From a virus: DNA of 64,000 nucleotides. Under the pieces are notes generated by a model. That model did no database searches. It saw nothing but the letters and a program-made list of their open reading frames with translations, and was not told where the DNA came from. The stretch is from the UHGV virus genome UHGV-1579991; one strand, written 5' to 3'. The stretch's first letter is position 1, and every line of letters begins with the position of its first letter. This document shows, one piece after another, positions 4,779-46,007 of the stretch. A program made the position numbers and the translations under genes.

Positions 4779-6770
4779 ATGTCTGAAGTTAAGCATCAAG
4801 TATATGACCCTGTAGCACAATTCAAATCTGCAGAAGAAAAGGAAGCTGCAAGAGTCGTGTGGTGTTCAGAAAGTGTGCGTCGTGCATATGCAGCAGTTGA
4901 CCAAGGCCTGCCATTACGGTCGAATCCCTGGTTCTTTGGCAATATTGCATTGCGTAAGCCAGGACTATTGTATAGATACTCTGACGTAGAGCTACGTGAA
5001 TGGCTTAGATGTGCTTATGATATACTGTACTTTGCCAACACATACGCTACACTCATGACACCTGCAGGTGTGCGAATGCATATTACGTTGCGACCATATC
5101 AGAAAAAAATGCTTCGTGCGTATCAAAAGCAAAAGTACATTATAAGTTTGTGTGGACGACAAATAGGCAAAACTACGACTGCTGCAATTTTCCTCGCTTG
5201 GGCTGTCATTTTCAATCGTGAGCTCAACATAGCAGTACTTGGCGACCGCTTGGCTACATCAAGTGAAAACCTGAACAAAACAAAAGACATCATAAACAAT
5301 CTGCCATTCTTTATGAAGCCTGGTGTGTTTGTTTGGAATGGTGGAATGGTCGCATTTGACAATGGCTGCAAAATTATCACAGGTACTGCTCAAAAGTCAT
5401 CACTTGTCGGTAAAACAATTCACATCTTGTATCTTGATGAGCTCGCAATTCCGCCTGCTCAGCAATCAAAGACTCTTGTAGACTATGCATTGCCCACAAT
5501 TGCATCATTGCCAACTGGCAAAGTTATCGTAACATCTACGCCATCTGGTGATAATGTGTTCAAGACTTTGTGGCTTGGTGCAATTAACAAAACAAATGGA
5601 TTCTTTCCAATTCAAGTAAACTGGTGGGACATTCCAGGTCGTGATGAAAAGTGGAAAGCTGAACAAATTGCAATTCTTGGTGAAGATGCTTTCAATGAGC
5701 AATACAACTGCGTGTTCTTGTCAGGTGCAACGTCAATTTTCAATTCAAGAGCAATTGATGATATTGCAAGACGACAACAAAAGTATGAATTTGTTGCTGA
5801 TGAGCGTCTTGAATCGCTGCTCAGATTTTTCATTGCTGATTCAGATGTTGGCACTGAACCTGAGCCGCATTCATTTATGACTTGGCGTGCAGATATTGAC
5901 CCAGCGACACTCAAAAATGAAACATGTATCATCAACATCGACATCGCTGAAGGCTTATCTGGCGACTTTTCTGTCATACATGTGCATCGTATAGTTGACA
6001 TTGCAAAAGATGCTGAACTTGAACTTGATGCAAGCAATCTGTATGATATGTTTGACGATGACAAAAAATCATTGTTTGCAAAAGCAGTTGAAATGCAACG
6101 TCAAATGTCGGCAACACAAGCTCAAGATGATGACGATGATGACGATGACGACTGGTTTGGCGCAGACGATGATGTTGCTCAAGGAGTCGATGCATATCAA
6201 GATTATGCGAATGCTGCAGTAGAAGAGATTGGCTTGTGGCGCTCAAATGTGACGTCAATTAAAGTCATGGCTCTGTATTTGCAGTTCTTAATGACATATG
6301 TGTTTGACGCAAACAAAACAAAGATTATCTATGAACGCAACAAATATGGTGGAGAGTTTCGTTCATATTGTTTGTCTGAACGTGCACGCAATATTGCAAT
6401 TGATGAAGAGAGCTTCGTAAGCTTCCAACGAACTCTTGGTTCAGAACAACTTGCACCAGGCTGTTCAATTACGCCTGGCACCAAACCAGTGTACGTAAGA
6501 CAGCTCAAAGACCTTATTGAAACTGGCAAGATTCTTGAAAACAATGCAGATACGCAAAGAGAGCTTACATACTTTGGCGGTGTCAAAGGCAAGAATGGTC
6601 ATGTGTCATATCAGGCATCACCAGGCTTCCATGATGACATTGCAATGACTCTTGTATCTCTTGCAGCATTTATGGACACTCGATGCAACGATTGGCTTGA
6701 ACTGCTTGATGTGTTCTACAATGGCAGCAGTCAAACAAGTTCTGATGATGACGATGATGACTGGATTTGA
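4779..6770 (+). CDS. Terminase large subunit (T4 gp17-like)
   Basis: Walker A CGRQIGKTT, Walker B ILYLDELA, overall resemblance to gp17 ATPase region; ATG at 4779; unusual poly-Asp tracts (DDDDDDDDDW and C-terminal DDDDDDWI). Confidence 0.85.
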   Translation: MSEVKHQVYDPVAQFKSAEEKEAARVVWCSESVRRAYAAVDQGLPLRSNPWFFGNIALRKPGLLYRYSDVELREWLRCAYDILYFANTYATLMTPAGVRMHITLRPYQKKMLRAYQKQKYIISLCGRQIGKTTTAAIFLAWAVIFNRELNIAVLGDRLATSSENLNKTKDIINNLPFFMKPGVFVWNGGMVAFDNGCKIITGTAQKSSLVGKTIHILYLDELAIPPAQQSKTLVDYALPTIASLPTGKVIVTSTPSGDNVFKTLWLGAINKTNGFFPIQVNWWDIPGRDEKWKAEQIAILGEDAFNEQYNCVFLSGATSIFNSRAIDDIARRQQKYEFVADERLESLLRFFIADSDVGTEPEPHSFMTWRADIDPATLKNETCIINIDIAEGLSGDFSVIHVHRIVDIAKDAELELDASNLYDMFDDDKKSLFAKAVEMQRQMSATQAQDDDDDDDDDWFGADDDVAQGVDAYQDYANAAVEEIGLWRSNVTSIKVMALYLQFLMTYVFDANKTKIIYERNKYGGEFRSYCLSERARNIAIDEESFVSFQRTLGSEQLAPGCSITPGTKPVYVRQLKDLIETGKILENNADTQRELTYFGGVKGKNGHVSYQASPGFHDDIAMTLVSLAAFMDTRCNDWLELLDVFYNGSSQTSSDDDDDDWI

Positions 6771-18362: not shown

Positions 18363-21300
18363 TCAAAAGCCTCGATTCATCAGTTCATCAGCAAGTCGTT
18401 CAAGTTCAGTAGCAGCTTTTTGTCGCTTGGCTTCTCTTTCTGCTTCAACATCTGCTTTGCTTACTGGCGATTCCAAGTCTTTTGCAGGTGCATCTTCAAT
18501 AACAGTCAAATTGTTGTCATCAAACTTGTTGTCAATGTCAACTCGTTTGAATGATATGATGCCTGATGACACCTGAGCTTCTACTTGTTGTTTGTCAAAT
18601 ACAAGACTACTAATCGTTGATTGCAGTTTTGTAGATGCCAGCAATCGTTCTGTGTTATCTGCAAAAATGTCATCAGTAAACAATACATGCAGCATTTGAG
18701 CAATCGAATCACGACTTCTGCTGTAGCCACTGTCAAATGCAGGCAACTGCTTAATTGCATAGATGTCGCCATCATGTACAGTAATTGCATTGAACATGCG
18801 TCTTGCAATTGATGCCACCGAATCAAGTACATCTGGTGATTGCGGCGTGTAGCCTCGTGAATCAAAGTATATGAGTGCAGAGTTCTTAACAATTTGATCG
18901 ACTACTTCTGATGCAATTGAGACTGCATCTTTGCTGTTATTGAAGACATCATTTAGCATATATGACACAATCTTGATGTTCGACTCATGCATTGTGCCAC
19001 TTGAGCCAGCATCAAATATTGACACTGCGTCTTTGATTGATTTGAGTCTTGCAAGTCGATACATGTCTTTGTTATCAATGACATACATATCGATAGTCTT
19101 CATAATTGTGTCGAACAAGTAATGATGCGATAGTGTTCGCAATGCATGTCGCCAATCATCAAATACTCGTCTGTCTTCTACAAGATATGCAAGCTTGCCA
19201 TTTTTCTTGACAAGTTCAAATCTGTCTGATTCTTGAATTTGCTCTGCCGGCAAATTCATGATGACTTCGAATGTAGCCTGATTGACAAATGATGCAAACA
19301 TTTTGCCAATCTTGCTGTTCTTTTCTTGACGGTACTCTGCTCGAGCTTCTTTTGCAGCATTGAGAACTTGAGCAATCATCATGTCATCTGCAACAACATC
19401 TTGCACGACTTTGCATTCATAGCCATACGATGACAATGTGTTCTGAATGATGACAAGCTGAGTAGCCCATTGTCGCCATTTCTGCTCAAACATATTGAGC
19501 TTATACGCAGTCAAGTGAATCTTGATTTCACCTGTGTACGGGTCACGATAAAAGTACGGTGCATTGAATGCCCATTCAAAGAAATCAAAGAGACTTCTTG
19601 AGTCATTGCGCTTTGTCTGCATTTGCAAAATGTCCCAGAATGTCAACTTTTCAACATTTGTTAATGTCAAGTCAAGCTCATCATATGCAGTGATGTTTCG
19701 TGGGTCACCATTCGCTTTTGTCATACTGAAATACACATATGACTGAATGGATATTTTGCGAAGTCGTGAGTTGAACTGCTCAATTTCTTGACCAGTGAAT
19801 GCCTCGTCATAAATGACATCGAATTCGTAGCTGTCATTGATATCAATGCCAACTGACAAGTAATTTGTGCAGAATAGCAGTTCAATATCACCGATTGTGC
19901 CAGATTCATTGATTGATTGAACAAAGTCATGCATTGCATTGTCACGCTTGTAGTACTTGACTTTTGGATTTCTGCCAAGCATCATTCGAACTGCACCAAC
20001 AATTGCATGAGTAAATGCATCGCCTTTGTTTGTTGGGAACAGAATTCGTTTGCCTGCTTTAATTGCTGTTGAGATATGTGATGCAAGTTTTGTAATCTTG
20101 TCGCCGTCATGTTTGCAGCAGACAAATCTGACACCTTTGTTGTAATTAAGTGGCTTATCGCAGAATACGACAGTATCAAAATGACAGAACATGTGTTCAG
20201 CTACAGGTGTGCCTGTCATCAAAATGACTTTTGTCTGTAACTTTGTTAAGTTGTCAATCACATTTGCAGGTACAACATCACGATATGCAGACATTGTCAA
20301 CAAGTGCGACTCGTCGACGACGACGTAGTCATATAAAATTGACACTTCCTCTGGGTCAGCTAATGTAAATTTATCGAATGTCAAAGCTACATTGACATGC
20401 TTAGACAATTCAAGACCACGCTGACCAAATGAGCAATACATGCCAAGGTCTGACATCTCAATCTTTGATTGCAAGATTGATGTGTATGGTTCAATCAGCA
20501 TGACTCGTTTTCCATCACGAGTAAGCTGTTTGATGAATTCTGTCTTGCCTGAACCTGGTCGTGCAATCAAATAGTTGATGCCAGTTACAAATGCTTCTTC
20601 AAGTTCATGCTTGTATGTCGACAAATACTCATTTTCTGCAAGTTTGAAGACATGCGTATGTCGAAGTTCAAAGTCTTTTTGCTGTGCAACTTTCGACATA
20701 ATGTATTGACTGATTGCGTCTTCTGTATTGTGTTCAGCAATCAGTTCATTGACAGTTACAGACGACTTGTTAGCAAACTTGAATTTGAAGCCATGTTTTT
20801 CACGAAGTTCTTTGACAGATGACCATACACATGGACAAGTGCCTGCTGCATTACGTTCAACTGCAGACCTGAATGAGTTTGCCCAGCTGTTATGCTCTGC
20901 ATTGAACTTTGGATTGCCCGAACACATTTGCAAGAACATTTGCAACACATGTTGATATTGTGCAGAAGTCGTTGATTGCAAATCATATAAAAATGCTAAA
21001 GTATATGCAAGTCTGTATCTACCAGTGTTATCGTAGTTTTGTGGAGTGATTGTGAGCATTGTGCCCTCTTCAATCATTGTGATGTCGTCACGTTGAGTAA
21101 AGACTTGCTCGCCGTCAGTCATTGCAGTCATATGAGACTTCGGTGCATAATCAAAACGACCACGAAGTCTATCAAACATTGTCTTCAGTTTGTCGATGCA
21201 GAATTTTGCATCAACTGAAGCATAAATGCTAACATCAAACTCTGGTTGCTCAATGAATTGCGCGTTTTGATTGATGATGACATCTTTATCTCGTGCAACA

Positions 21301-21962
21301 AATAGTGGCTGACTAATTTTGCAAACAGACGCATCAACTACTCGAGATTCAGACATTTGACCTGACTTTTCAAGTCGTCTTGACAATGTATTGTTGACAG
21401 GATGCACTTCTCGAGCCATGTCATGATTGCCCTCTGATTCAAGCTGGTCACTCAGCAACACAAGGCATTTCCAAATGACATACAGTTTTGCCTCATATGC
21501 ATCAAGATATACTTTCTTTGCTGCAGAAGCATTTTCAGATGACACAAATACAGCATCTTCAGTTTGAATTGACAGAGGCTTTGAGATTGTATAGACGTGC
21601 AAGCCTGAACCAGAAGTCGACTTAAGCACAGCAACACACCACGGATATTTGCAAAGCATTGCAGCCAAACGTGGTTTAATGACTTCTACAAGTTCTTTTG
21701 AGTGAAAGTCCAAATCGACTGGCTGTAAGCCTGACCAAGTCAAGTAGTCATGAACTTGTTGTTTTGGTCGAGCAAACATTGTCGATTGCGACACAAAGGG
21801 ACGATGCGCTTTATCTACTGTGTCAAGTGACTCATCATTTGCAACTTTCATGATGAGGTCATACAATGAAATTTGTTGCTTATTGACAGTGTCTTCTGTT
21901 TTACGAACACTGTCGCCCATCATGAACTTTATGCCACTGAGCAAATCTTTGACGTTTGACAT
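18363..21962 (-). CDS. PrimPol-like (archaeo-eukaryotic primase) domain fused to DExH P-loop helicase; putative replicative primase-helicase
   Basis: Start at MSNVKDLL (ATG 21962-21960); AEP-like motifs VDLDFH and SGSGLHVY; Walker A LIARPGSGKTEF; Walker B VVVDESHLL; about 1199 aa. Confidence 0.5.
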   Translation of the reverse strand: MSNVKDLLSGIKFMMGDSVRKTEDTVNKQQISLYDLIMKVANDESLDTVDKAHRPFVSQSTMFARPKQQVHDYLTWSGLQPVDLDFHSKELVEVIKPRLAAMLCKYPWCVAVLKSTSGSGLHVYTISKPLSIQTEDAVFVSSENASAAKKVYLDAYEAKLYVIWKCLVLLSDQLESEGNHDMAREVHPVNNTLSRRLEKSGQMSESRVVDASVCKISQPLFVARDKDVIINQNAQFIEQPEFDVSIYASVDAKFCIDKLKTMFDRLRGRFDYAPKSHMTAMTDGEQVFTQRDDITMIEEGTMLTITPQNYDNTGRYRLAYTLAFLYDLQSTTSAQYQHVLQMFLQMCSGNPKFNAEHNSWANSFRSAVERNAAGTCPCVWSSVKELREKHGFKFKFANKSSVTVNELIAEHNTEDAISQYIMSKVAQQKDFELRHTHVFKLAENEYLSTYKHELEEAFVTGINYLIARPGSGKTEFIKQLTRDGKRVMLIEPYTSILQSKIEMSDLGMYCSFGQRGLELSKHVNVALTFDKFTLADPEEVSILYDYVVVDESHLLTMSAYRDVVPANVIDNLTKLQTKVILMTGTPVAEHMFCHFDTVVFCDKPLNYNKGVRFVCCKHDGDKITKLASHISTAIKAGKRILFPTNKGDAFTHAIVGAVRMMLGRNPKVKYYKRDNAMHDFVQSINESGTIGDIELLFCTNYLSVGIDINDSYEFDVIYDEAFTGQEIEQFNSRLRKISIQSYVYFSMTKANGDPRNITAYDELDLTLTNVEKLTFWDILQMQTKRNDSRSLFDFFEWAFNAPYFYRDPYTGEIKIHLTAYKLNMFEQKWRQWATQLVIIQNTLSSYGYECKVVQDVVADDMMIAQVLNAAKEARAEYRQEKNSKIGKMFASFVNQATFEVIMNLPAEQIQESDRFELVKKNGKLAYLVEDRRVFDDWRHALRTLSHHYLFDTIMKTIDMYVIDNKDMYRLARLKSIKDAVSIFDAGSSGTMHESNIKIVSYMLNDVFNNSKDAVSIASEVVDQIVKNSALIYFDSRGYTPQSPDVLDSVASIARRMFNAITVHDGDIYAIKQLPAFDSGYSRSRDSIAQMLHVLFTDDIFADNTERLLASTKLQSTISSLVFDKQQVEAQVSSGIISFKRVDIDNKFDDNNLTVIEDAPAKDLESPVSKADVEAEREAKRQKAATELERLADELMNRGF

Positions 21963-21974
21963 ATTTTGTTGATG

Positions 21975-22030
21975 CTTTTGTTTGGTCAAAATTATATTGA
22001 ATATGATACAACACTTGTGACATTTTTGCT
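21975..22030 (-). promoter_or_regulatory. Promoter-like motif variant upstream of primase-helicase
   Basis: Minus-strand GCAAAAATGTCACAAGTGTTGTATCATATTCAATATAAT. Confidence 0.4.
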
Positions 22031-22671
22031 TAGAATGCGACACCGACATGTGCGCCAATCATAGCAGCTTTTGAGTCAACTTGCTTCATGCAGCCAGCAT
22101 CAATACCGACACGCCATTGTAAACTACCTTTGCCAAATTGACGAGTGTATGACAGCCAATACATGTCAATTGATTGCTTGTCAAATGTGCCAAATGCATA
22201 ATGAAAGTCTACATTATTTCGTGGCGCATCATGGTCAATGACTTTAATTGTCGTAGTTTGCACTTCACGAATGACTGTGTCTGCTTTGAACATCAAAACG
22301 TCCCAATCACGTTGCTTAATTGCGTTTTGTGTGACATAGTCTTTTATTGCTATTTGCAGTTTGTCTGACTTCAATGTGTCTGCGTACTCATATTGTGCAA
22401 AGTAGTCATTAACATAATGCATAAGCTTTGTTGTGTCAATGTCAACTACAAGAGTCGTGTCACAATACACTGGCACTGGTATTGTCTTGCCAGGTATATG
22501 AACTGTGTCGTGTTTAATGAATGTGTCAACTTTGACAATTGGCTCTGCATTTATAGCATCTTGATATGTTTGCCAGTCTTTTGGGCTGACAAAATGCCAA
22601 TCTTTGAAAATCATGACAGCAGTCAATACAATGACTGCTGTCATGACTATGATTTTGAGTGTCTTCAACAT
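22030..22671 (-). CDS. Signal-peptide protein with C-terminal aromatic beta-strand; possible outer-membrane beta-barrel (Lom/OmpX/Ail-like)
   Basis: N-term MLKTLKIIVMTAVIVLTAVMIF; C-term ...WRVGIDAG...AMIGAHVGVAF ending in Phe. Confidence 0.4.
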   Translation of the reverse strand: MLKTLKIIVMTAVIVLTAVMIFKDWHFVSPKDWQTYQDAINAEPIVKVDTFIKHDTVHIPGKTIPVPVYCDTTLVVDIDTTKLMHYVNDYFAQYEYADTLKSDKLQIAIKDYVTQNAIKQRDWDVLMFKADTVIREVQTTTIKVIDHDAPRNNVDFHYAFGTFDKQSIDMYWLSYTRQFGKGSLQWRVGIDAGCMKQVDSKAAMIGAHVGVAF

Positions 22672-38629: not shown

Positions 38630-41600
38630 TTAGAACAGAGCAATGATGTTGTCGACAAACATAAAGCATGCATGCAGCAATTCAGCTGTCGGCGTCATCT
38701 CATATGCTTTGCCATCATACATGAATCGCACAGTGACAATTGGTGATACTTCGTCTTTGAATGCAAGCACTGGAATGTCTACGCCTGCAGTCAATTGCAC
38801 TTCAACGTCCTTGTCAGCTGCTGCATCTTTAGCAATCACTGCGATATCTCGACAACGACCAGCAGCTACTGCATACCGAACATTTGTCAATGCTGCAGAC
38901 ATATCAACAAGAGCTTGCATAATTTGCTGTTGAGTAAATTGCTCGACTGACTTCTTTGCAGCCTTGACTGCTTCGATATCTTGCGTATTTGCAAGAATCA
39001 ATGCTACCACTGCAGGGTCAGAAGTAGTCCACCAACGGCCATCAATTGCAAGCCACAGTCGATTGCCATTGACGTCAATTGCATATGCATATTGAGTGTT
39101 TGGTGCCAATGTGACTTTTCGAGTGTTCTTTAAGAACTCTGCTGCATCAGGAGCTGCAACAATGTTCTTGACAAATGACGGCAGCATTTCAGCTTCAAAT
39201 GTTTGTGTAGCTTCAAAGACACCGCCACGTGCATCGTCATCAATTCTGCCTGCAAAGCGTTTGCAGATTTGAATGATTGTAGCCATGCCTACTGTTGGAA
39301 CGACTTGACGTTTCATTGCAGGCATTTGCAGAGGCATTGTATCTTGTGCAATGTACAATGATGCAACATCAACTGTGTCAAGTACTCGTACAATGTCAGC
39401 AGCGTCAACAATTACAAACCAGTCACCATCATGACAAACAATCAGTTGCTTGCTATCATTTGCGAATGTTAACAGCACTGCAACGTCATTTTTGATTGAT
39501 ATTGCAGGAATCCATGCTTGTTGCAGAGGTAAGTCAAGATTTGGTGTGCCGCATGGATAAAGCGCAGATGGCTGCATAATTGAGCGGCAATCAAAACCTA
39601 TTGAACTTACAAGCTGCAGAACTTCGCCACGAATGCAAGCATTACTTTGATTCTGTGTCATATCATATGCAAGCCAACTGCAAATTGCTTTGATTGATGA
39701 CACTGGAAATGCTATGCCAATTGTGCTGTATGCAATCTTGCCGTCTGCTGACAATGACTCATCAACTGCAATGCCAGCATCATTGAACAATGACATATCA
39801 ATTGAACAATGGAATTCGCCACCAGGCATTGGACCTGCAGCAATACCATAGCCAGGACCAAGTGACAGCCATTCTTTCATTGCATCTGAATTGTATGACG
39901 AGAACTTGTACAACACATATGACTTATGCGGGTCACTAACTGACTTGCGAATCTCCATCTTGGCGCCTGCTTTCTTTGCAATTGCTTTGATGTTGTCAGC
40001 ATGCTTCTTTGCCTCAGACTTGTCAAATTTGCCTTCATCAAGTTGAGCAATCTTGCCAAGCGCATAAGCAGTCCATGCAATTGACAATTGATTCAGTGCA
40101 CCAACTTCTGACCACGACTTTTCTGCAAACCATGAGCCAAGACCAGATTTGTCAAGAGTTGCTTTGCGTTCAGCTTTTGTTGCAGCATCCCACCACTTGC
40201 CTGTTGCAGGCAACACAATGTCTTTGATTTGCTCCTTGCGAAGCTCATTGACGCCAATTTTGCCCTCATGAATATGCGCATTTGCATGATATGCTCTAAG
40301 AGCAGCCAATGCAGCATCATATGAGTCATAGTCTTGCGGCCAGAATTCCCCATTCTTGCCAATGATGCCCCATACGCCCTTTGACTTTTCTTGGATGACA
40401 GAGTCTTTGTCACCAGCAGCTTCATTGACAAATGCAGTGTTAAGATATGCAATGACATGCTGAAGCTCTTTGTCGTCTGCAGACTCATTGACGTTCTTAG
40501 CGTAATCACCAAGAATTGATTCAACTTTGCCACGTAAATTGCTTGGCATATCATCAAGGTCAAGATTGCCATACTTCGTGACTTCTGGTTGAGACAATCC
40601 AAGCAATTTCAACACCTTATCACGGTACTTGTTTGCGAGCTTCTTCCAAATCCAGCGGAATGTTACAGCGCCAATCAAGAATTTGATGAGGCCCTCATCA
40701 AGTACATGTTGTTCACGCAAATATGCTGTAATGCATGAACGTTGACCATCAGTTAAGTCAACCCACATTTTATCAAGCAGTATTGAATCTGGGTTGCTTG
40801 CAATGCCAGCGCCACTGCGGTTGTACACATTCATTCTGTCAATTGCTGGTGTTGCGTCATTGTCCCACCAAGCTTGCGCATATGAACATCCAGCAGGATT
40901 TGAGATTGCCTCATCAATGTACATGACATTGAAAATTTCGCAAAGACGCTTGCGACATTCAGGTGACATAACTTGCCATTGTGTTGCAATTTTGTCTTCT
41001 GACCACTGCAACAGCATGTCTGCAAATTCTTTACCTGCACATTGCTCAACTGCGCCATGTTTCGAACGCCAATAATTGTCAGGCTCAATCTGCGCAATTG
41101 CATGAACAAATGAAGTCAGATTGTATGACGCAGATTCGCAAATGCAATGCTGTTCAATGTAGCTACGAACAGCAAGTGCAGTGTCTTCCGGCAAGTTGCT
41201 ATATGGTGACTCATAGATGTTTGCTTGCTGATTGAGCATATGTGGAGCGACTTCTGCAATGATTTGTTTGCGAACATTCAATGGCCATGCATTCCACGAA
41301 GATTCCACAGATTCATCAAGATGCATACCAATTGCATCCATAACTGCATCAGCATCTTTGCCCGACAGTTCGTCAAACAATTTGTCTACTACTGCAGCGT
41401 CATATCGCAAATTTGGCTGAGCTTTTGCAAGAGCATCCATCATTGCTTTGCGTTCTTGTTTTGACGCATTGTTCCATGTGCCAGCATACAATTCTGCTGT
41501 CGCGCTTTCACAAACAATATCTGCAGTAGCATATGCTTGCTTCATAATGTCCATGAAGATTGACTTCATTTTTGGATGCATCACATGATACTTTTCATTG

Positions 41601-41836
41601 TAAATGTCAAGTGTGCCATAGACATCTTTCAATGGTCTAATGCTTTCTGATGAGCCGAATGATGGCTTCAAAATTGAATTGCATACACGTTCAACGGTGC
41701 CACGCATAAACTTGACATCACTTCGCTTGTCACTGATAGACATAAATGCATCAATGACAGACTTGATGGTGTCATCTGCGGCTTCATTAACAAAGCCTAC
41801 TGGTCGACCGCCAAACTTGTTTGTTTGTGTTGTCAT
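38630..41836 (-). CDS. Large hypothetical protein, 1068 aa
   Basis: Uninterrupted ORF; no polymerase, helicase or nuclease motif recognised. Confidence 0.55.
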   Translation of the reverse strand: MTTQTNKFGGRPVGFVNEAADDTIKSVIDAFMSISDKRSDVKFMRGTVERVCNSILKPSFGSSESIRPLKDVYGTLDIYNEKYHVMHPKMKSIFMDIMKQAYATADIVCESATAELYAGTWNNASKQERKAMMDALAKAQPNLRYDAAVVDKLFDELSGKDADAVMDAIGMHLDESVESSWNAWPLNVRKQIIAEVAPHMLNQQANIYESPYSNLPEDTALAVRSYIEQHCICESASYNLTSFVHAIAQIEPDNYWRSKHGAVEQCAGKEFADMLLQWSEDKIATQWQVMSPECRKRLCEIFNVMYIDEAISNPAGCSYAQAWWDNDATPAIDRMNVYNRSGAGIASNPDSILLDKMWVDLTDGQRSCITAYLREQHVLDEGLIKFLIGAVTFRWIWKKLANKYRDKVLKLLGLSQPEVTKYGNLDLDDMPSNLRGKVESILGDYAKNVNESADDKELQHVIAYLNTAFVNEAAGDKDSVIQEKSKGVWGIIGKNGEFWPQDYDSYDAALAALRAYHANAHIHEGKIGVNELRKEQIKDIVLPATGKWWDAATKAERKATLDKSGLGSWFAEKSWSEVGALNQLSIAWTAYALGKIAQLDEGKFDKSEAKKHADNIKAIAKKAGAKMEIRKSVSDPHKSYVLYKFSSYNSDAMKEWLSLGPGYGIAAGPMPGGEFHCSIDMSLFNDAGIAVDESLSADGKIAYSTIGIAFPVSSIKAICSWLAYDMTQNQSNACIRGEVLQLVSSIGFDCRSIMQPSALYPCGTPNLDLPLQQAWIPAISIKNDVAVLLTFANDSKQLIVCHDGDWFVIVDAADIVRVLDTVDVASLYIAQDTMPLQMPAMKRQVVPTVGMATIIQICKRFAGRIDDDARGGVFEATQTFEAEMLPSFVKNIVAAPDAAEFLKNTRKVTLAPNTQYAYAIDVNGNRLWLAIDGRWWTTSDPAVVALILANTQDIEAVKAAKKSVEQFTQQQIMQALVDMSAALTNVRYAVAAGRCRDIAVIAKDAAADKDVEVQLTAGVDIPVLAFKDEVSPIVTVRFMYDGKAYEMTPTAELLHACFMFVDNIIALF

Positions 41837-41949: not shown

Positions 41950-44900
41950 TCAATTACATGCTGAATGTCCGCAGTTGGTGCATCGAACACAGCCGTCAAA
42001 CTTGACCATGTCACCACCGCATTCAGGACACTTTGCATACATCTTTGAGCCATCTTGAATGTGTAGTTTCAATGCGCGACCAATTGCTTTGCAGAATGTG
42101 CCAACAGATGCAAAGCTTTTTGCAGTTTGGTCGACAATTTCACCAAGGTCGATGCCATTGCGAAGCATCGTTGAGTACAGTCGAGTAATTGTTTGCTGCT
42201 CATCTGAACCAAGACGTTCTGAGATATTGTCATAGTGTTGCAAGAATGACAAATTATCACCAAGCTTGTAGTGCTTCTTATCAGTCTTTGTGATTGTCGT
42301 TTGTTCAATGCCTTGCAACTTGTCAAATTCGTCTTTGTCAAGTTCAAATGCAAAGATTTCATAGGGTCGACCATCATCACAACCTACAAGAATACACCAC
42401 TTACGCTTATACACTGATACACAATACACTGCAGCAGGCAATACAGGTTTTCGTTTTGAGCGATGACCAGACTGCAAGACATGCGACTTATCCTTAGACT
42501 GCTTATCATCTTTTACGAGAACACCTGCACGTGAGCCATCTCGATAAATTGTGCAACCCTTGCAGCCAGATTTCCATGCAGTCAGATAAATTTCACGAAC
42601 AAGCTCTTTTGTTGCAGAGTTTGGAATATTGACTGTTACAGAAATTGATGAGTCAATGTACTTTTGCAACGCGCCTTGCAGTTTAACCTTGCCAATCCAG
42701 TCAACATCTTCAGTAGTTGCCTTATAGTATGGTGATTGAACAAGCAATTCATCAATGACTGCTTGCGAAGCATTTGACAACCAAGCTTTGATACGAGACA
42801 TTTCTGCTTCTGACCATTCAATGCCAGTATCTTTGACAAGGGTGAATTTGTCATCACCAAGCTGCACTCGTTTGCAAATCCACTGCATCAATGGGTAGTG
42901 AACTACAGCGTATTCAATGAACTTGTCACCAGTAGTCTCATCAATGAAGTTGATGTCTGCTTCATTATCAACTGCAGTAGGCTTTCGACGACGTTTGTGC
43001 AGTGGCATAAAAACAGGTTCAATGCCAGAAGTTGTCTGAGTCATCAAAGCTGTGGTGCCAGTTGGCGCAATTGTTGTTGTGTTGATGTTTCGACGACCAA
43101 ATTGTTGATAAGTTGTGATGTGCTCATCATCAATCAGTTCAGATAACATACGCTGAATGAACTTTGACTGCACATCTGTGTCATAGTCGAATATTGCAAA
43201 TGAGCCACGAATCTCTGCCAAGTCAATTGACGCTTCATAAGTCGCCTTTACAAGCCATTGTTGCATAGTGACTGCGAAGTCAATTGACTCTTGTGAACCA
43301 TAGCGCAAGCCAAGCATTGCCATTGCATCGCCAAGTGCAAGAAAGCCCATGCCATATCGACGAGTATTTGTCAATTTGTCATAGACTTTATGCCACAAGT
43401 CAAGCTCAGTTTTCTTAATGTCAAATGATTCTTTGTCTGATTCAACCTTTGCAATGATTCGTTGAACTGCTTCAATTTCAAGCTGCACAAGGTCATCCAT
43501 GATGACTGCACAGTCATATGTATCTTTGTAGAATGCTTCAAAGTCAAATGATGCATCAGCAGTCCAAGGATTAAGCACATATGCAGTCAAATTGCGATGT
43601 GATAAAATGCAGCTTGCATATGCTGCAAGAGGCTGTTCACCGCACTGCCTGTTGTTTACAAATACTTGCATATGTCTGTCATTTGTATCATTGACAGCGT
43701 CAAATGACCCTACAAAAAAGTTGTGATAATCATCTACAGTGCCATTATACACATCTTCTACACCATCAAGTTCAACAGTGTGTACCCTATGATTGTAGTA
43801 ATCTGCAAACTGCTTAAACTTTCTGTATGACGCATGAATAGCAGCGTCAACATTGTTAGATTTGCATTCATTTGCAAATTCTTCATAATTTGGTCGTTTG
43901 CCAAGTTTTTGCTTTGCTGCAGTATATACAAGCACTTGTTCTTTAGACCATTTTGCTTGCTGAGCTGCGTGGCCGCATTCGGCAGAACAATATGCAACTT
44001 CTCTATAAAACCAGTGCGCCCAAAATTCAGAGCCGCAATGTTCGCAAATACGTTTAACATACACTTGTTTGTCAACAAATTTAGTGTCATAGCCCATATT
44101 GCGAACTTTAATTGCTGTTGCTATGCATCTGCTATCAATGCCAACTAAATCAGGATATTTAACATTAGCGCGCGTTGCACAATGACTTAAAAATGCATCA
44201 ATAGAGCCAAATGTTTCTACTAATTTATTGTACCTGTAGCCAGACCATGCAACAGTATTATTGCCTGGCGCATAGCGCATATAGTATTCTAATTCTTTGC
44301 GACTAAGGCCTCTTCCAACTTTTGCAGTGCATTGCGTAACATAGTCTACAATTGATTGCACAGTTGTATCAATATCATATCTGCCATTACGTTCACCAGA
44401 AGTAGATGCACTCATTTTAGCAGAATACTGTGCAAAACGTTCTGCATTTGCTTTAATTTTGTATATTGGATTGTTAGTGCCTCTACGTTCAAGTGCATGT
44501 AATGCATCATGCTCTTTTTTGCTTAGTACTTGTAAGTTATTTGGGTCATTGTTTAATGAATTGCCATCGATATGATGCACTACTGTGTGTGTAGCATCAA
44601 ACTGTTCAGCATGACAGTATTCTGCTATTAAACGATGCTCAAACTTATATACACCATTATTCAACACTGCATAATATGGTGCAGATTTGCTATTTGTTTG
44701 ATAGCTAAGCACTTCATCAAATGAACATTGTTGTCTTGCAATAATTGCTAAGCTATCACCATGCTGTAATTGTCGTGCTTCTTTGTATGTGCCATCTGTT
44801 AACTTAAACTTGTGATTACCTGTGCAACGAATAACATCACCAGAATCAAGTGTAACTTTGTATATTTGCACATTTGAGCCTGTTTTGCGTGGATGCCGCA

Positions 44901-45936
44901 TTTTGCGTACAACTACATTATTGTTGTCATCATAGCAATACACATTAACATCATCGCCAATATCTGCAAGTTCACGTATTGTCATTGTTTGTCTGCCATC
45001 AGCAAGCATAACTTTAGTGCTGCCAACAATGCATGGATTTGTTGAGCGCTCTTCATACATTTTACCGTATGCTTTCGAGTTCGACTCTTCCATAATGCGG
45101 TCCCAAAAGAACACGCCGGGTTCTGCAGATGCCCATACATTGTCAACAATTTTGTCAAATAATGCTTTTGCATCTGATGTCTTATGCAGCTCTTGGCCAT
45201 CAGAGCCACGCCAAATATGTTCAAACTGCTGTTCTGCAAGCACTGCACGCATAAATGCATCAGTAAGCTTGATGGAAATGTTTGCACCTGTGATTTTTGT
45301 CAAGTCTTTTTTTGCGTCAATGAACTTATCTGCATCAGGATGCTCAATTGACAATGACAACATCAATGCGCCACGCCTGCCATTTTGTGCAACTTCTTTT
45401 GTCGATGTTGAAAAGCGTTCCATAAATGACACGACACCAGACGTCGTAATAGCACTGTTATGTACTTCTACGCCTTCTGGGCGAATATGCGACAAATCAT
45501 GGCCAACACCACCACGACGTTTCATCAACTGAACTTGCTCTTCATCTGTTTTGAAGATGCCGCCATATGAATCTGCATCATTGCCTATTACATAGCAATT
45601 TGACATTGATGTGTAACCGCCAAGACCGATACCAGCCATTGGAGAACCACCAAGTACAAATCGCTTAAATGGCTCAAGCAAATATGCAAGTCGCTCTTTT
45701 GACAATACACGTTTGCCTGTCTGTTCTTCAAATTGTGATTCTATACGGTCAAATTCATTGACCCAGCGCTCATGCATATCAGACAATGAGTGTTCATACA
45801 AATTGTCTTTGTCATGATGCAAGTATTTTGACATGCATATGTCAGCAGCCATTGAGTCGCCCGTAAATTCATGCGTCAGTGTAGTGTGCACTTCAGCATA
45901 TTCAGGCGACCCAATTTGAATGGGACGTTTTGTCAT
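41950..45936 (-). CDS. nrdJ: Ribonucleotide reductase, class II (adenosylcobalamin-dependent, NrdJ-like), interrupted in-frame by an intein
   Basis: Start at MTKRP (ATG 45936-45934); extein motifs STNP...CGEQPL (reconstitutes NPCGE), TIYRDGSR, C-terminal CPECGG...CTNCG zinc ribbon; total ORF 1328 aa is far longer than a typical RNR. Confidence 0.75.
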   Translation of the reverse strand: MTKRPIQIGSPEYAEVHTTLTHEFTGDSMAADICMSKYLHHDKDNLYEHSLSDMHERWVNEFDRIESQFEEQTGKRVLSKERLAYLLEPFKRFVLGGSPMAGIGLGGYTSMSNCYVIGNDADSYGGIFKTDEEQVQLMKRRGGVGHDLSHIRPEGVEVHNSAITTSGVVSFMERFSTSTKEVAQNGRRGALMLSLSIEHPDADKFIDAKKDLTKITGANISIKLTDAFMRAVLAEQQFEHIWRGSDGQELHKTSDAKALFDKIVDNVWASAEPGVFFWDRIMEESNSKAYGKMYEERSTNPCIVGSTKVMLADGRQTMTIRELADIGDDVNVYCYDDNNNVVVRKMRHPRKTGSNVQIYKVTLDSGDVIRCTGNHKFKLTDGTYKEARQLQHGDSLAIIARQQCSFDEVLSYQTNSKSAPYYAVLNNGVYKFEHRLIAEYCHAEQFDATHTVVHHIDGNSLNNDPNNLQVLSKKEHDALHALERRGTNNPIYKIKANAERFAQYSAKMSASTSGERNGRYDIDTTVQSIVDYVTQCTAKVGRGLSRKELEYYMRYAPGNNTVAWSGYRYNKLVETFGSIDAFLSHCATRANVKYPDLVGIDSRCIATAIKVRNMGYDTKFVDKQVYVKRICEHCGSEFWAHWFYREVAYCSAECGHAAQQAKWSKEQVLVYTAAKQKLGKRPNYEEFANECKSNNVDAAIHASYRKFKQFADYYNHRVHTVELDGVEDVYNGTVDDYHNFFVGSFDAVNDTNDRHMQVFVNNRQCGEQPLAAYASCILSHRNLTAYVLNPWTADASFDFEAFYKDTYDCAVIMDDLVQLEIEAVQRIIAKVESDKESFDIKKTELDLWHKVYDKLTNTRRYGMGFLALGDAMAMLGLRYGSQESIDFAVTMQQWLVKATYEASIDLAEIRGSFAIFDYDTDVQSKFIQRMLSELIDDEHITTYQQFGRRNINTTTIAPTGTTALMTQTTSGIEPVFMPLHKRRRKPTAVDNEADINFIDETTGDKFIEYAVVHYPLMQWICKRVQLGDDKFTLVKDTGIEWSEAEMSRIKAWLSNASQAVIDELLVQSPYYKATTEDVDWIGKVKLQGALQKYIDSSISVTVNIPNSATKELVREIYLTAWKSGCKGCTIYRDGSRAGVLVKDDKQSKDKSHVLQSGHRSKRKPVLPAAVYCVSVYKRKWCILVGCDDGRPYEIFAFELDKDEFDKLQGIEQTTITKTDKKHYKLGDNLSFLQHYDNISERLGSDEQQTITRLYSTMLRNGIDLGEIVDQTAKSFASVGTFCKAIGRALKLHIQDGSKMYAKCPECGGDMVKFDGCVRCTNCGHSACN
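43645..45033 (-). mobile_element. Intein (about 463 aa) with Hint blocks and an HNH endonuclease domain, apparently ending in Gln
   Basis: Begins at Cys after STNP (CIVGSTKVMLADGRQTMTIRELADIGDD, block A); block B GNHKFKLTDG; HNH motif VVHHIDGNSLNNDPNNLQVLSKKEHDALH; zinc-finger-like CEHCGSEF...CSAECGH; block F VYNGTVDDYHNFFVG; ends ...VFVNNRQ immediately before CGEQ. Confidence 0.65.
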
Positions 45937-45973
45937 TGTAACAGTGCATTTAAGTGTTTTAACAGTTTTATGT

Positions 45974-46007
45974 ATAAATTGTACAACAATGGGCAAAATT
46001 TTGCATC
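45974..46007 (-). promoter_or_regulatory. Promoter-like conserved motif containing TTGTACAA upstream of RNR
   Basis: Minus-strand GATGCAAAATTTTGCCCATTGTTGTACAATTTATAC. Confidence 0.5.

What the first reader, a model, noticed from the sequence alone, without database searches (positions are those of the whole stretch)
43645..45033. Large HNH-containing intein in class II RNR, inserted at the catalytic NPCGE motif and ending in Gln
The RNR ORF is about 1328 aa. The N-extein ends STNP and the C-extein starts CGEQPL, so excision would rebuild the class II active-site motif NPCGE. The insert begins with Cys and block A (CIVGSTKVMLADGRQ...), has block B (GNHKFKLTDG), an HNH motif (VVHHIDGNSLNNDPNNLQVLSKKEHDALH), a zinc-finger-like CxxC...CxxC and block F (VYNGTVDDYHNFFVG). 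The only boundary consistent with a Cys +1 nucleophile puts Gln (…VFVNNRQ|C) at the intein C-terminus instead of the canonical Asn. Terminal Gln is a rare, previously documented variant, and HNH rather than LAGLIDADG endonuclease domains are also uncommon in inteins.
Basis: partly seen in the sequence, partly recalled or inferred. Interest (0 to 1): 0.7.

Follow-up and report, generated by a model that had tools for sequence, protein, structure and literature searches.

The report
HNH intein ending in Gln in phage NrdJ
A phage vitamin-B12-dependent ribonucleotide reductase gene is interrupted, exactly in front of its catalytic cysteine, by a real 463-residue self-splicing intein that carries an HNH homing nuclease and ends in glutamine instead of asparagine; each feature is already known, but the intein belongs to a large, mostly unannotated family in which the "rare" glutamine is the commoner ending.

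Summary
The minus-strand ORF 41950-45936 encodes 1328 aa. Residues 302-764 (window 43645-45033) are an in-frame insert between STNP and CGEQPL. All 117 uninterrupted homologues retrieved read [V/I]STNPCGEIPL. The spliced extein passes NCBIfam's NrdJ cut-off.

The exteins are under strong purifying selection against a sister phage (dN/dS 0.039). The reductase is therefore in use and the intein must splice. This is inferred, not shown.

The insertion point is described as the most frequent intein site in RNRs. HNH inteins and Gln-terminal inteins (CIV RNR, Pab/Pho PolII) are documented.

One result goes beyond the finding. The intein belongs to a big metagenomic family (378 representatives at E ≤ 1e-30). 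Of 127 scored members, 76 end in Gln and 51 in Asn. None has the penultimate His, and 122 have Asn at block F position 4.

Verdict: a new member of a known kind, of moderate interest.

The parts
41950..45936 (-). nrdJ precursor gene (1328 aa including the intein; stop codon 41950-41952)
   Evidence: An identical protein (P0015) is on 4 other metagenomic contigs.
45034..45936 (-). N-extein coding part (301 aa, ends ...ERSTNP)
   Evidence: It aligns with the N-terminal half of uninterrupted NrdJ.
43645..45033 (-). Intein, 463 aa, from Cys1 to Gln463
44995..45033 (-). Block A (CIVGSTKVMLADG); Cys1 is the first nucleophile
   Evidence: Cys1 and Thr6 are invariant in 107/107 family members.
44791..44835 (-). 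Block B (VIRCTGNHKFKLTDG), with the TxxH motif Thr71/His74
   Evidence: His74 is invariant in 107/107. The Thr is at least 90% conserved.
44497..44637 (-). HNH nuclease domain (Pfam HNH_3, intein aa 133-176; motif VVHHIDGNSLNNDPNNLQVLSKKEHDALH, aa 151-179)
   Evidence: 34.3 bits, cut-off 24.8. The HH...N...NL...H residues are intact. A regex for this motif matches 85 of 106 full-length family members.
43789..44496 (-). Central, mostly helical region, presumed DNA-binding. It holds two 'LGRxP..EW'-like helical repeats (44266-44319 and 43849-43905).
43975..44046 (-). Zinc-ribbon-like CxxC...CxxxC motif (CEHCGSEFWAHWFYREVAYCSAEC)
   Evidence: Present in 91 of 106 full-length family members. Retained in the 208-aa mini-intein of the sister phage. 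Modelled as beta-hairpins with block pLDDT of about 86-91.
43708..43755 (-). Block F (DVYNGTVDDYHNFFVG); position F:4 is Asn430 rather than the usual Asp; F:13 is His437
   Evidence: His437 is invariant 107/107 and Asn430 is present in 102/107.
43666..43707 (-). Extra loop or hairpin of 14 aa between blocks F and G (SFDAVNDTNDRHMQ)
   Evidence: Present, usually basic, in most family members. Absent from canonical relatives P0012 and P0013. Low to medium pLDDT.
43645..43665 (-). Block G (VFVNNRQ): penultimate Arg462, terminal Gln463 (CAG at 43645-43647)
43642..43644 (-). +1 Cys codon (TGC): second splicing nucleophile and the future thiyl-radical Cys of NPCGE
   Evidence: PMC2677866 identifies the site.
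41950..43644 (-). C-extein coding part (564 aa plus stop; starts CGEQPL; C-terminal TSCPD/zinc-ribbon tail)

Best explanation
This is a splicing-competent class 1 intein with a nested HNH homing endonuclease. It sits in the nrdJ (adenosylcobalamin-dependent RNR) gene of a T4-like phage, directly in front of the thiyl-radical cysteine of the NPCGE motif.

Proposed protein-level mechanism:
1. Cys1 makes a thioester with Pro-1.
2. The N-extein is passed to Cys+1, the future radical Cys.
3. The C-terminal Gln463 cyclises to an aminoglutarimide and releases the intein. The invariant block F His437 probably assists, because the usual penultimate His is replaced by Arg.
4. An S-to-N shift restores STNP-CGEQPL and gives active NrdJ.

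Proposed DNA-level mechanism: the HNH nuclease, guided by the zinc ribbon and helical modules, cuts intein-free nrdJ alleles of co-infecting phages. Repair then copies the intein in (homing).

Shown here: reading-frame continuity, both junctions, the motifs, the predicted Hint fold, selection on the exteins, and family-wide use of Gln or Asn at the last position.

Inferred: splicing itself, Gln cyclisation, and nuclease activity.
For: - Junctions: all 117 uninterrupted NrdJ homologues read STNPCGEIPL. The spliced extein passes NrdJ_Z.
- Splicing apparatus: Cys1, Thr71/His74, His437 and Cys+1 are present, and Cys1, His74 and His437 are invariant in 107 family members.
- The host gene is functional: against the sister phage L001 the exteins have dS 0.25, dN 0.0097 and dN/dS 0.039, with 18 of 865 aa differing. 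An insert at the catalytic Cys must therefore be removed.
- Gln is a maintained state: 76 of 127 non-redundant family members end in Gln and 51 in Asn. No other residue occurs there.
- Gln-terminal members also occur in cellular MAGs, for example Chitinophagales HMV01682.1.
- Precedent: Gln cyclisation supports splicing in the CIV RNR and Pab/Pho PolII inteins (PMC4031507, PMC8175363).
- Mobility: three related phages (98% and 80% extein aa identity) carry three different inteins at the same codon. The intein GC content is lower than that of the exteins. The HNH motif is intact.
Against: - No experiment was done; splicing and nuclease activity are inferred.
- Three positions depart from the textbook active site: F:4 is Asn not Asp, G:6 is Arg not His, and G:7 is Gln not Asn.
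- Pfam's intein model aligns only to position 148 of 155. NCBIfam reports the N-terminal intein model but no C-terminal one.
- In the Pab PolII intein, Gln makes splicing slower than Asn (PMC4031507).
- No intein-free allele was found among close relatives, so current homing cannot be demonstrated.
- Coordinates of the AF2 model were not available, so the geometry around Gln463 could not be inspected.
Confidence: 0.85

Rival explanations
1. The intein is decaying and no longer splices. Gln and Arg in block G are inactivating mutations, the phage nrdJ is effectively a pseudogene, and the host RNR supplies deoxynucleotides.
For: Block G is non-canonical (Arg-Gln), and the Pfam and NCBIfam C-terminal intein models do not cover it. 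Phage RNRs are auxiliary genes, and degenerating intein-containing nrdA genes have been reported in Campylobacter phages (PMC3653736).
Against: The extein dN/dS is 0.039 against a sister phage at dS 0.25. The 1328-codon frame is intact. The same Gln state occurs in 76 of 127 non-redundant relatives, with all other catalytic residues invariant. An identical protein was recovered from several samples.
Confidence: 0.06
2. The intein splices, but its HNH domain is no longer an active homing nuclease. It would be a fixed, vertically inherited passenger that may only bind DNA.
For: No intein-free allele was seen among close relatives. The sister phage holds a mini-intein of the same family that has already lost its HNH domain. 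No PDB sequence homologue was found for the HNH region, so the catalytic geometry is unchecked.
Against: The HNH_3 match is above Pfam's cut-off, with the His, Asn and His residues intact. About 80% of the family retain the motif. Three different inteins occupy one site in phages only 5-20% diverged, which argues for recent turnover.
Confidence: 0.3
3. The boundary is misplaced. The ancestral terminus would be the conserved Asn-Asn (VFVNN), with 'RQ' as extra residues that stay in the extein or are removed by another route.
For: MAFFT aligns canonical relatives ending ...VVKN or ...LVHN with VFVNN, leaving RQ as a two-residue overhang. Asn at G:4 is present in 83 of 127 members.
Against: Arg is not a nucleophile, so no splicing chemistry works at NN|R. 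All uninterrupted homologues have NP directly joined to CGE, with no room for two extra residues in the active-site motif. The last residue is always Gln or Asn, whereas position -3 varies (N, T, S, V).
Confidence: 0.02

Closest known systems
Chilo iridescent virus (CIV) RNR large-subunit intein (Amitai, Dassa & Pietrokovski 2004, as summarised in PMC4031507)
   Same: A viral ribonucleotide reductase host, a native C-terminal Gln, and class 1 chemistry. It is reported to splice better with Gln than with Asn, so Gln can be an adapted state.
   Different: Its host is a class I RNR of a eukaryotic virus. Sequence relatedness to the present family, and its insertion point, could not be checked because the sequence and paper were not available.
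Pyrococcus abyssi / P. horikoshii DNA PolII mini-inteins (PDB 2LCJ, 5BKH; PMC8175363, PMC8229266)
   Same: C-terminal Gln followed by Cys+1, together with Cys1. The block F His is proposed to activate Gln cyclisation. Cys1-Cys+1 can form a regulatory disulfide.
   Different: These are archaeal, thermophilic mini-inteins without a nuclease. Gln there slows splicing. They match only at fold level (ranks 36 and 38).
NrdJ-1 split intein from ocean metagenomes (Dassa et al. 2009, PMC2677866; PDB 8UBS)
   Different: It is inserted one residue further downstream. It is naturally split by a free-standing nuclease gene. It has no in-frame HNH domain. Identity is 21%.
HNH-containing inteins at the same RNR site in deposited phage genomes (Synechococcus phage S-CBWM1 gp151; huge phage LR756501)
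   Same: An in-frame HNH domain inside a Hint domain, inserted directly before the radical Cys (SNL|C...|CTEI and SATNP|C...|CGEQ).
   Different: They end in canonical or near-canonical Asn (VLVHN, ICVKN). S-CBWM1 is a class I RNR. They cover only 47-58% of the query at 29-32% identity. No record in the 50,697-genome phage collection covers at least 80% of this intein.
In-frame HNH inteins in general (Dalgaard et al. 1997; surveyed in bioRxiv 10.1101/2025.01.02.630785)
   Same: The architecture is a splicing domain with a nested HNH nuclease instead of LAGLIDADG. It is regarded as rare and mostly phage-borne.
   Different: The actinophage examples in that survey occur in DNA polymerase, minor capsid, terminase and thymidylate synthase proteins, not RNR. 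Their terminal residues are not discussed there.

Membership tests
Intein (class 1 protein-splicing Hint domain) | In-frame insertion at a conserved host-protein site that is absent from homologues | tested here: met
   All 117 uninterrupted NrdJ homologues read STNPCGEIPL. The RNR barrel Pfam model aligns across the insert.
Intein (class 1 protein-splicing Hint domain) | Cys/Ser at position 1 and Cys/Ser/Thr at +1 | tested here: met
   Cys1 (TGC at 45031-45033) and Cys+1 (TGC at 43642-43644). Cys1 is invariant in 107/107 relatives.
Intein (class 1 protein-splicing Hint domain) | Block B TxxH | tested here: met
   Thr71-Gly-Asn-His74. The His is invariant and the Thr at least 90% conserved.
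Intein (class 1 protein-splicing Hint domain) | Block F with Asp at F:4 and His at F:13 | tested here: inconclusive
   The F:13 His437 is present and invariant. F:4 is Asn430, as in 102 of 107 relatives, not Asp. F:4 varies among functional inteins; for example it is Ser in Pab PolII (PMC8175363).
Intein (class 1 protein-splicing Hint domain) | Block G ending His-Asn | tested here: not met
   It ends Arg462-Gln463. Both substitutions are documented in active inteins: about 5% lack the G:6 His, and Gln or Asp can replace Asn (PMC4031507). This lowers typicality, not membership.
Intein (class 1 protein-splicing Hint domain) | Hint (horseshoe beta) fold | tested here: met
Intein (class 1 protein-splicing Hint domain) | Autocatalytic excision with extein ligation | not testable with these tools
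   Only indirect support: extein dN/dS of 0.039 implies a working RNR.
Class 3 inteins (WCT motif) | No N-terminal nucleophile; Trp at B:12, Cys at F:4, Thr at G:5 | tested here: not met
   Cys1 is present, F:4 is Asn and G:5 is Asn. This is not a class 3 intein.
HNH homing endonuclease (Pfam HNH_3, PF13392) | Profile match above the curated cut-off, with His...Asn...His catalytic residues | tested here: met
   32.5-34.3 bits against a cut-off of 24.8. The motif is VVHHIDGNSLNNDPNNLQVLSKKEHDALH.
HNH homing endonuclease (Pfam HNH_3, PF13392) | Site-specific cleavage of the intein-free allele, and homing | not testable with these tools
   Indirect support only: three different inteins at the same codon in related phages.
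Inteins with C-terminal Gln (CIV RNR, Pab/Pho/Mma PolII) | Gln as the last intein residue, directly before the +1 nucleophile | tested here: met
   CAG at 43645-43647 followed by TGC. Gln or Asn is at the same aligned position in all 127 scored relatives.
Inteins with C-terminal Gln (CIV RNR, Pab/Pho/Mma PolII) | Common descent with those inteins | not tested
The PolII inteins match only at fold level. This group is a functional grouping, not a clade.
Class II ribonucleotide reductase NrdJ (host protein) | Spliced sequence passes the equivalog model and has the NPCGE radical-Cys motif | tested here: met
   TIGR02504 NrdJ_Z scores 468.7 bits against a cut-off of 399.95. The nearest named homologues are 'adenosylcobalamin-dependent ribonucleoside-diphosphate reductase' from Alistipes and Rikenellaceae at 44% identity.

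The most novel reading that the evidence does not exclude
The window's intein may represent an abundant, essentially unannotated lineage of RNR inteins with its own active-site solution. Its features are Asn at F:4, never His at G:6, Asn-Asn or Asn-Thr at G:4-5, an extra basic hairpin between blocks F and G, and Gln preferred over Asn as the cyclising residue. Under this reading, glutarimide formation is the normal and efficient branch-resolution step at mesophilic temperature, and it may be tuned to the redox state of the Cys1/Cys+1 pair that includes the RNR radical cysteine.
Probability: 0.25. Interest if true: 0.55.

Novelty: new member of a known kind. Interest (0 to 1): 0.35.

Why it matters
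For genome annotation, the gene should be called as one nrdJ with an intein. A relative in NCBI is simply labelled 'HNH endonuclease'.

For intein biology, this single copy adds little. The family behind it is more interesting. It gives hundreds of natural sequences in which Gln and Asn alternate at the cyclising position on a shared, non-canonical active-site background. Characterised Gln inteins are few: CIV RNR and the archaeal PolII inteins.

That contrast is a ready-made comparative set. It can be used to ask what makes Gln cyclisation efficient, and it is a source of new HNH-type homing nucleases aimed at the RNR active-site codons.

It also illustrates fast intein turnover at one hotspot in closely related phages.

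Tried and rejected
- Megablast of the gene against 50,697 phage genomes found no match. The phage itself is not in that collection.
- The word-indexed protein search with the intein found only 14 relatives. The exhaustive HMMER search was needed to see the family.
- Pfam on the central 229 aa at E <= 10 returned only a noise hit, DUF2256. The helical repeats remain unassigned.
- phmmer of the HNH region against PDB found nothing.
- phmmer of the block F/G tail against PDB returned only chance hits to designed beta-trefoils. Neither PDB search helped place Gln463 against a solved block G.
- A neighbour-joining tree of 107 family members with Fitch parsimony gave 31 Gln/Asn changes, against 33.5 ± 2.3 for shuffled labels. 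I do not read this as free interconversion. The sequences are representatives of 50%-identity clusters, so the tree is poorly resolved. Strong covariation of the terminal residue with a distant position (Ser115, z 7.9) and with G:5 (z 8.2) shows lineage structure.
- I looked for a co-conversion tract in the exteins next to the junctions, comparing window and L001. Mismatch density within 100 nt is 9 in 200, the same as the gene-wide 5.4%. No signal.
- The paper on the CIV Gln intein (Amitai 2004) is not held.
- Class 3 intein and a misplaced boundary at NN|RQ were both considered and rejected (see the membership test and rival explanations).
Full report
**1. What is in the sequence**

The minus strand carries an ORF at 41950-45996. 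From the first ATG (45936) it encodes 1328 aa. The stretch named in the finding, 43645-45033, translates to 463 aa. It begins CIVGSTKVMLADGRQ and ends VFVNNRQ. The flanking sequence reads ...ERSTNP upstream and CGEQPL... downstream. The last intein codon is CAG (Gln) and the next codon is TGC (Cys).

Pfam finds the RNR barrel domain aligned across the insert (E = 1.6e-73). It also finds Intein_splicing (E about 1e-18, 67.9 bits, cut-off 35.8) and HNH_3 (34.3 bits, cut-off 24.8). The intein profile is matched only to position 148 of 155. NCBIfam reports the N-terminal intein model but no C-terminal one. Both results fit the non-canonical tail.

The one correction is that the cysteine motif is CxxC...CxxxC.

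**2. Junctions and host protein**

With the insert removed, the 865-aa protein scores 468.7 bits on TIGR02504 NrdJ_Z (cut-off 399.95). Its closest uninterrupted relatives are ~850-aa adenosylcobalamin-dependent RNRs of Alistipes and Rikenellaceae at 44% identity.

All 117 such homologues retrieved read [V/I]STNPCGEIPL. None contains VFVNN or NNRQ.

Dassa et al. [quoted passage not shown] The location is classical.

**3. Is it a working intein?**

The catalytic set is present: Cys1, Thr71/His74 (block B), His437 (block F) and Cys+1. Three positions are atypical: Asn430 at F:4, Arg462 at G:6 and Gln463 at G:7.

Function of the host gene can be judged against a sister phage contig, L001 (protein P0016).
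- The exteins are 94.6% identical in DNA, the same as the neighbouring gene (94.4%).
- Only 18 of 865 residues differ.
- dS is 0.25, dN is 0.0097 and dN/dS is 0.039.

A reductase under such selection must be active. With an insert at the radical cysteine, that requires excision. This is the main, indirect, argument for splicing.

**4. The Gln is a family trait**

The exhaustive HMMER search found 5485 representatives at E <= 1e-3 and 378 at E <= 1e-30. In the best 150 plus the earlier hits I scored 127 inteins that have the block F signature (typically VYNGTV..HNF) followed by C[G/S/C]E.
- 76 end in Gln and 51 in Asn. No other residue occurs at the last position.
- The penultimate residue is never His (Leu 46, Arg 31, Lys 18).
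- G:4 is Asn in 83.
- F:4 is Asn in 122.
- The commonest tails are NNLQ (26) and NNRQ (8). The window's tail is NNRQ.

In 106 members both junctions could be located as NP|C...[Q/N]|CGE. Their median length is 474 aa. An HNH motif is present in 85 and the zinc ribbon in 91. Other inteins within the same multi-intein proteins end in the usual HN or SN, so Gln is specific to this lineage.

The terminal residue covaries with G:5 (Asn with Gln, Thr with Asn; z 8.2) and with a distant position, Ser115 (z 7.9). This points to sub-lineages and perhaps a local structural coupling.

A crude neighbour-joining tree could not resolve how often the state changed. I draw no conclusion from it.

Asn (AAY) and Gln (CAR) codons differ at two positions. 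The intermediates would be Lys or His, so each switch is not trivial.

Members are almost all unnamed metagenomic proteins. One Gln-terminal member in NCBI is annotated only as 'HNH endonuclease [Chitinophagales bacterium]'.

**5. Mobility**

Three related phages carry three different inteins at the same codon.
- This window: 463 aa, HNH domain, tail ...NNRQ.
- P0016 (98% extein aa identity): a 208-aa mini-intein of the same family. It has lost the HNH and helical modules, keeps the zinc ribbon, and ends ...NTMN.
- P0017 (80% identity): a 183-aa intein ending ...LVHN.

The two inteins of the 94.6%-identical phages share only a 46-nt block F match at DNA level. The site has therefore been re-invaded or exchanged, not merely inherited. 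The intein GC content is 37.5% against 42.2% for the exteins. I saw no co-conversion signature in the flanks.

**6. Comparison with what is known**

C-terminal Gln inteins are documented and characterised. The CIV RNR intein splices better with Gln than with Asn. In the Pab and Mma PolII inteins, splicing is slow with the native Gln and improves with Asn. The Pho PolII intein also has a native C-terminal Gln (PMC4031507, PMC8175363, PMC8229266). About 5% of active inteins lack the penultimate His (PMC4031507).

In-frame HNH inteins have been known since 1997. They are regarded as rare and phage-associated (bioRxiv 10.1101/2025.01.02.630785).

HNH inteins at this very RNR site exist in deposited phages: S-CBWM1 (VLVHN|CTEI) and LR756501 (ICVKN|CGEQ). 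No record in the 50,697-genome phage collection covers more than 58% of this intein.

The element is therefore a new, divergent member of known kinds, at most 42% identical to any full-length relative listed in the exhaustive search. It is not a new kind.

**7. Verdict**

'Rare' should be replaced by 'rare among studied inteins, but the majority state in this large uncharacterised RNR-intein family'. Interest is moderate. The single locus is ordinary for an intein specialist. The family-level Gln/Asn alternation on a His-less block G is a useful, testable lead.

**8. Context**

The window is from a T4-like phage. It encodes a Gp23-type capsid protein, a T4-type large terminase, an NAD-dependent ligase and topoisomerase II subunits. 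The host is probably in the Bacteroidota, judging only from the nearest cellular NrdJ.

Noticed in passing
P0008 (metagenomic protein): A member of the same intein family sits one residue further downstream (GVNPC|CFAGDT...GIFLYQ|SEQTL). By the description in PMC2677866, this corresponds to the insertion point reported for the NrdJ-1 split intein. It also ends in Gln, but with Ser at +1.
   Followed up: partly
L001 40-3261 (P0016) and L006 706-3921 (P0017): Sister phages with 98% and 80% identical NrdJ exteins carry different inteins at the same codon. One is a 208-aa HNH-less mini-intein that keeps the zinc ribbon and ends NTMN. The other is a 183-aa intein ending VHN. This shows intein turnover at one hotspot.
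   Followed up: partly
P0009 and P0011: The same intein family, with its HNH domain, is also found in NifU_N/Fer2_BFD iron-sulfur scaffold proteins at GSPA|C...N|CGDMM. This suggests a jump to a different host protein with a similar Cys-Gly-acidic +1 context (CGD against CGE here).
   Followed up: no
P0018 and P0019: Two bacterial NrdJ homologues of 969 and 979 aa contain an internal tandem duplication of more than 100 aa of the RNR sequence. This may be an assembly artefact or a real duplication.
   Followed up: no
window 18363-22058 (-) and 38630-41836 (-): Two very large ORFs (1231 and 1068 aa) have no Pfam or PHROG match. The 1068-aa gene lies directly downstream of nrdJ and is conserved at 94.4% nt identity in the sister phage.
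   Followed up: partly
window 4779-6770 (+): The T4-type large terminase gene is one of very few long ORFs on the plus strand in a window that is otherwise almost entirely minus-strand.
   Followed up: no
Family-wide: e.g. P0169, P0180, P0205, P0208: Several hits are 2000-2800-aa proteins with up to 7 separate intein-like stretches. In one search some RNRs show a second intein site before the [S/T]RRGANMG motif; those inteins end in canonical Ser-Asn.
   Followed up: no
NCBI HMV01682.1 / HNG25966.1 (P0140): An intein-containing NrdJ from a Chitinophagales MAG, whose intein ends NNLQ|CGE, is annotated in NCBI only as 'HNH endonuclease'. This is an annotation error typical for this family.
   Followed up: no
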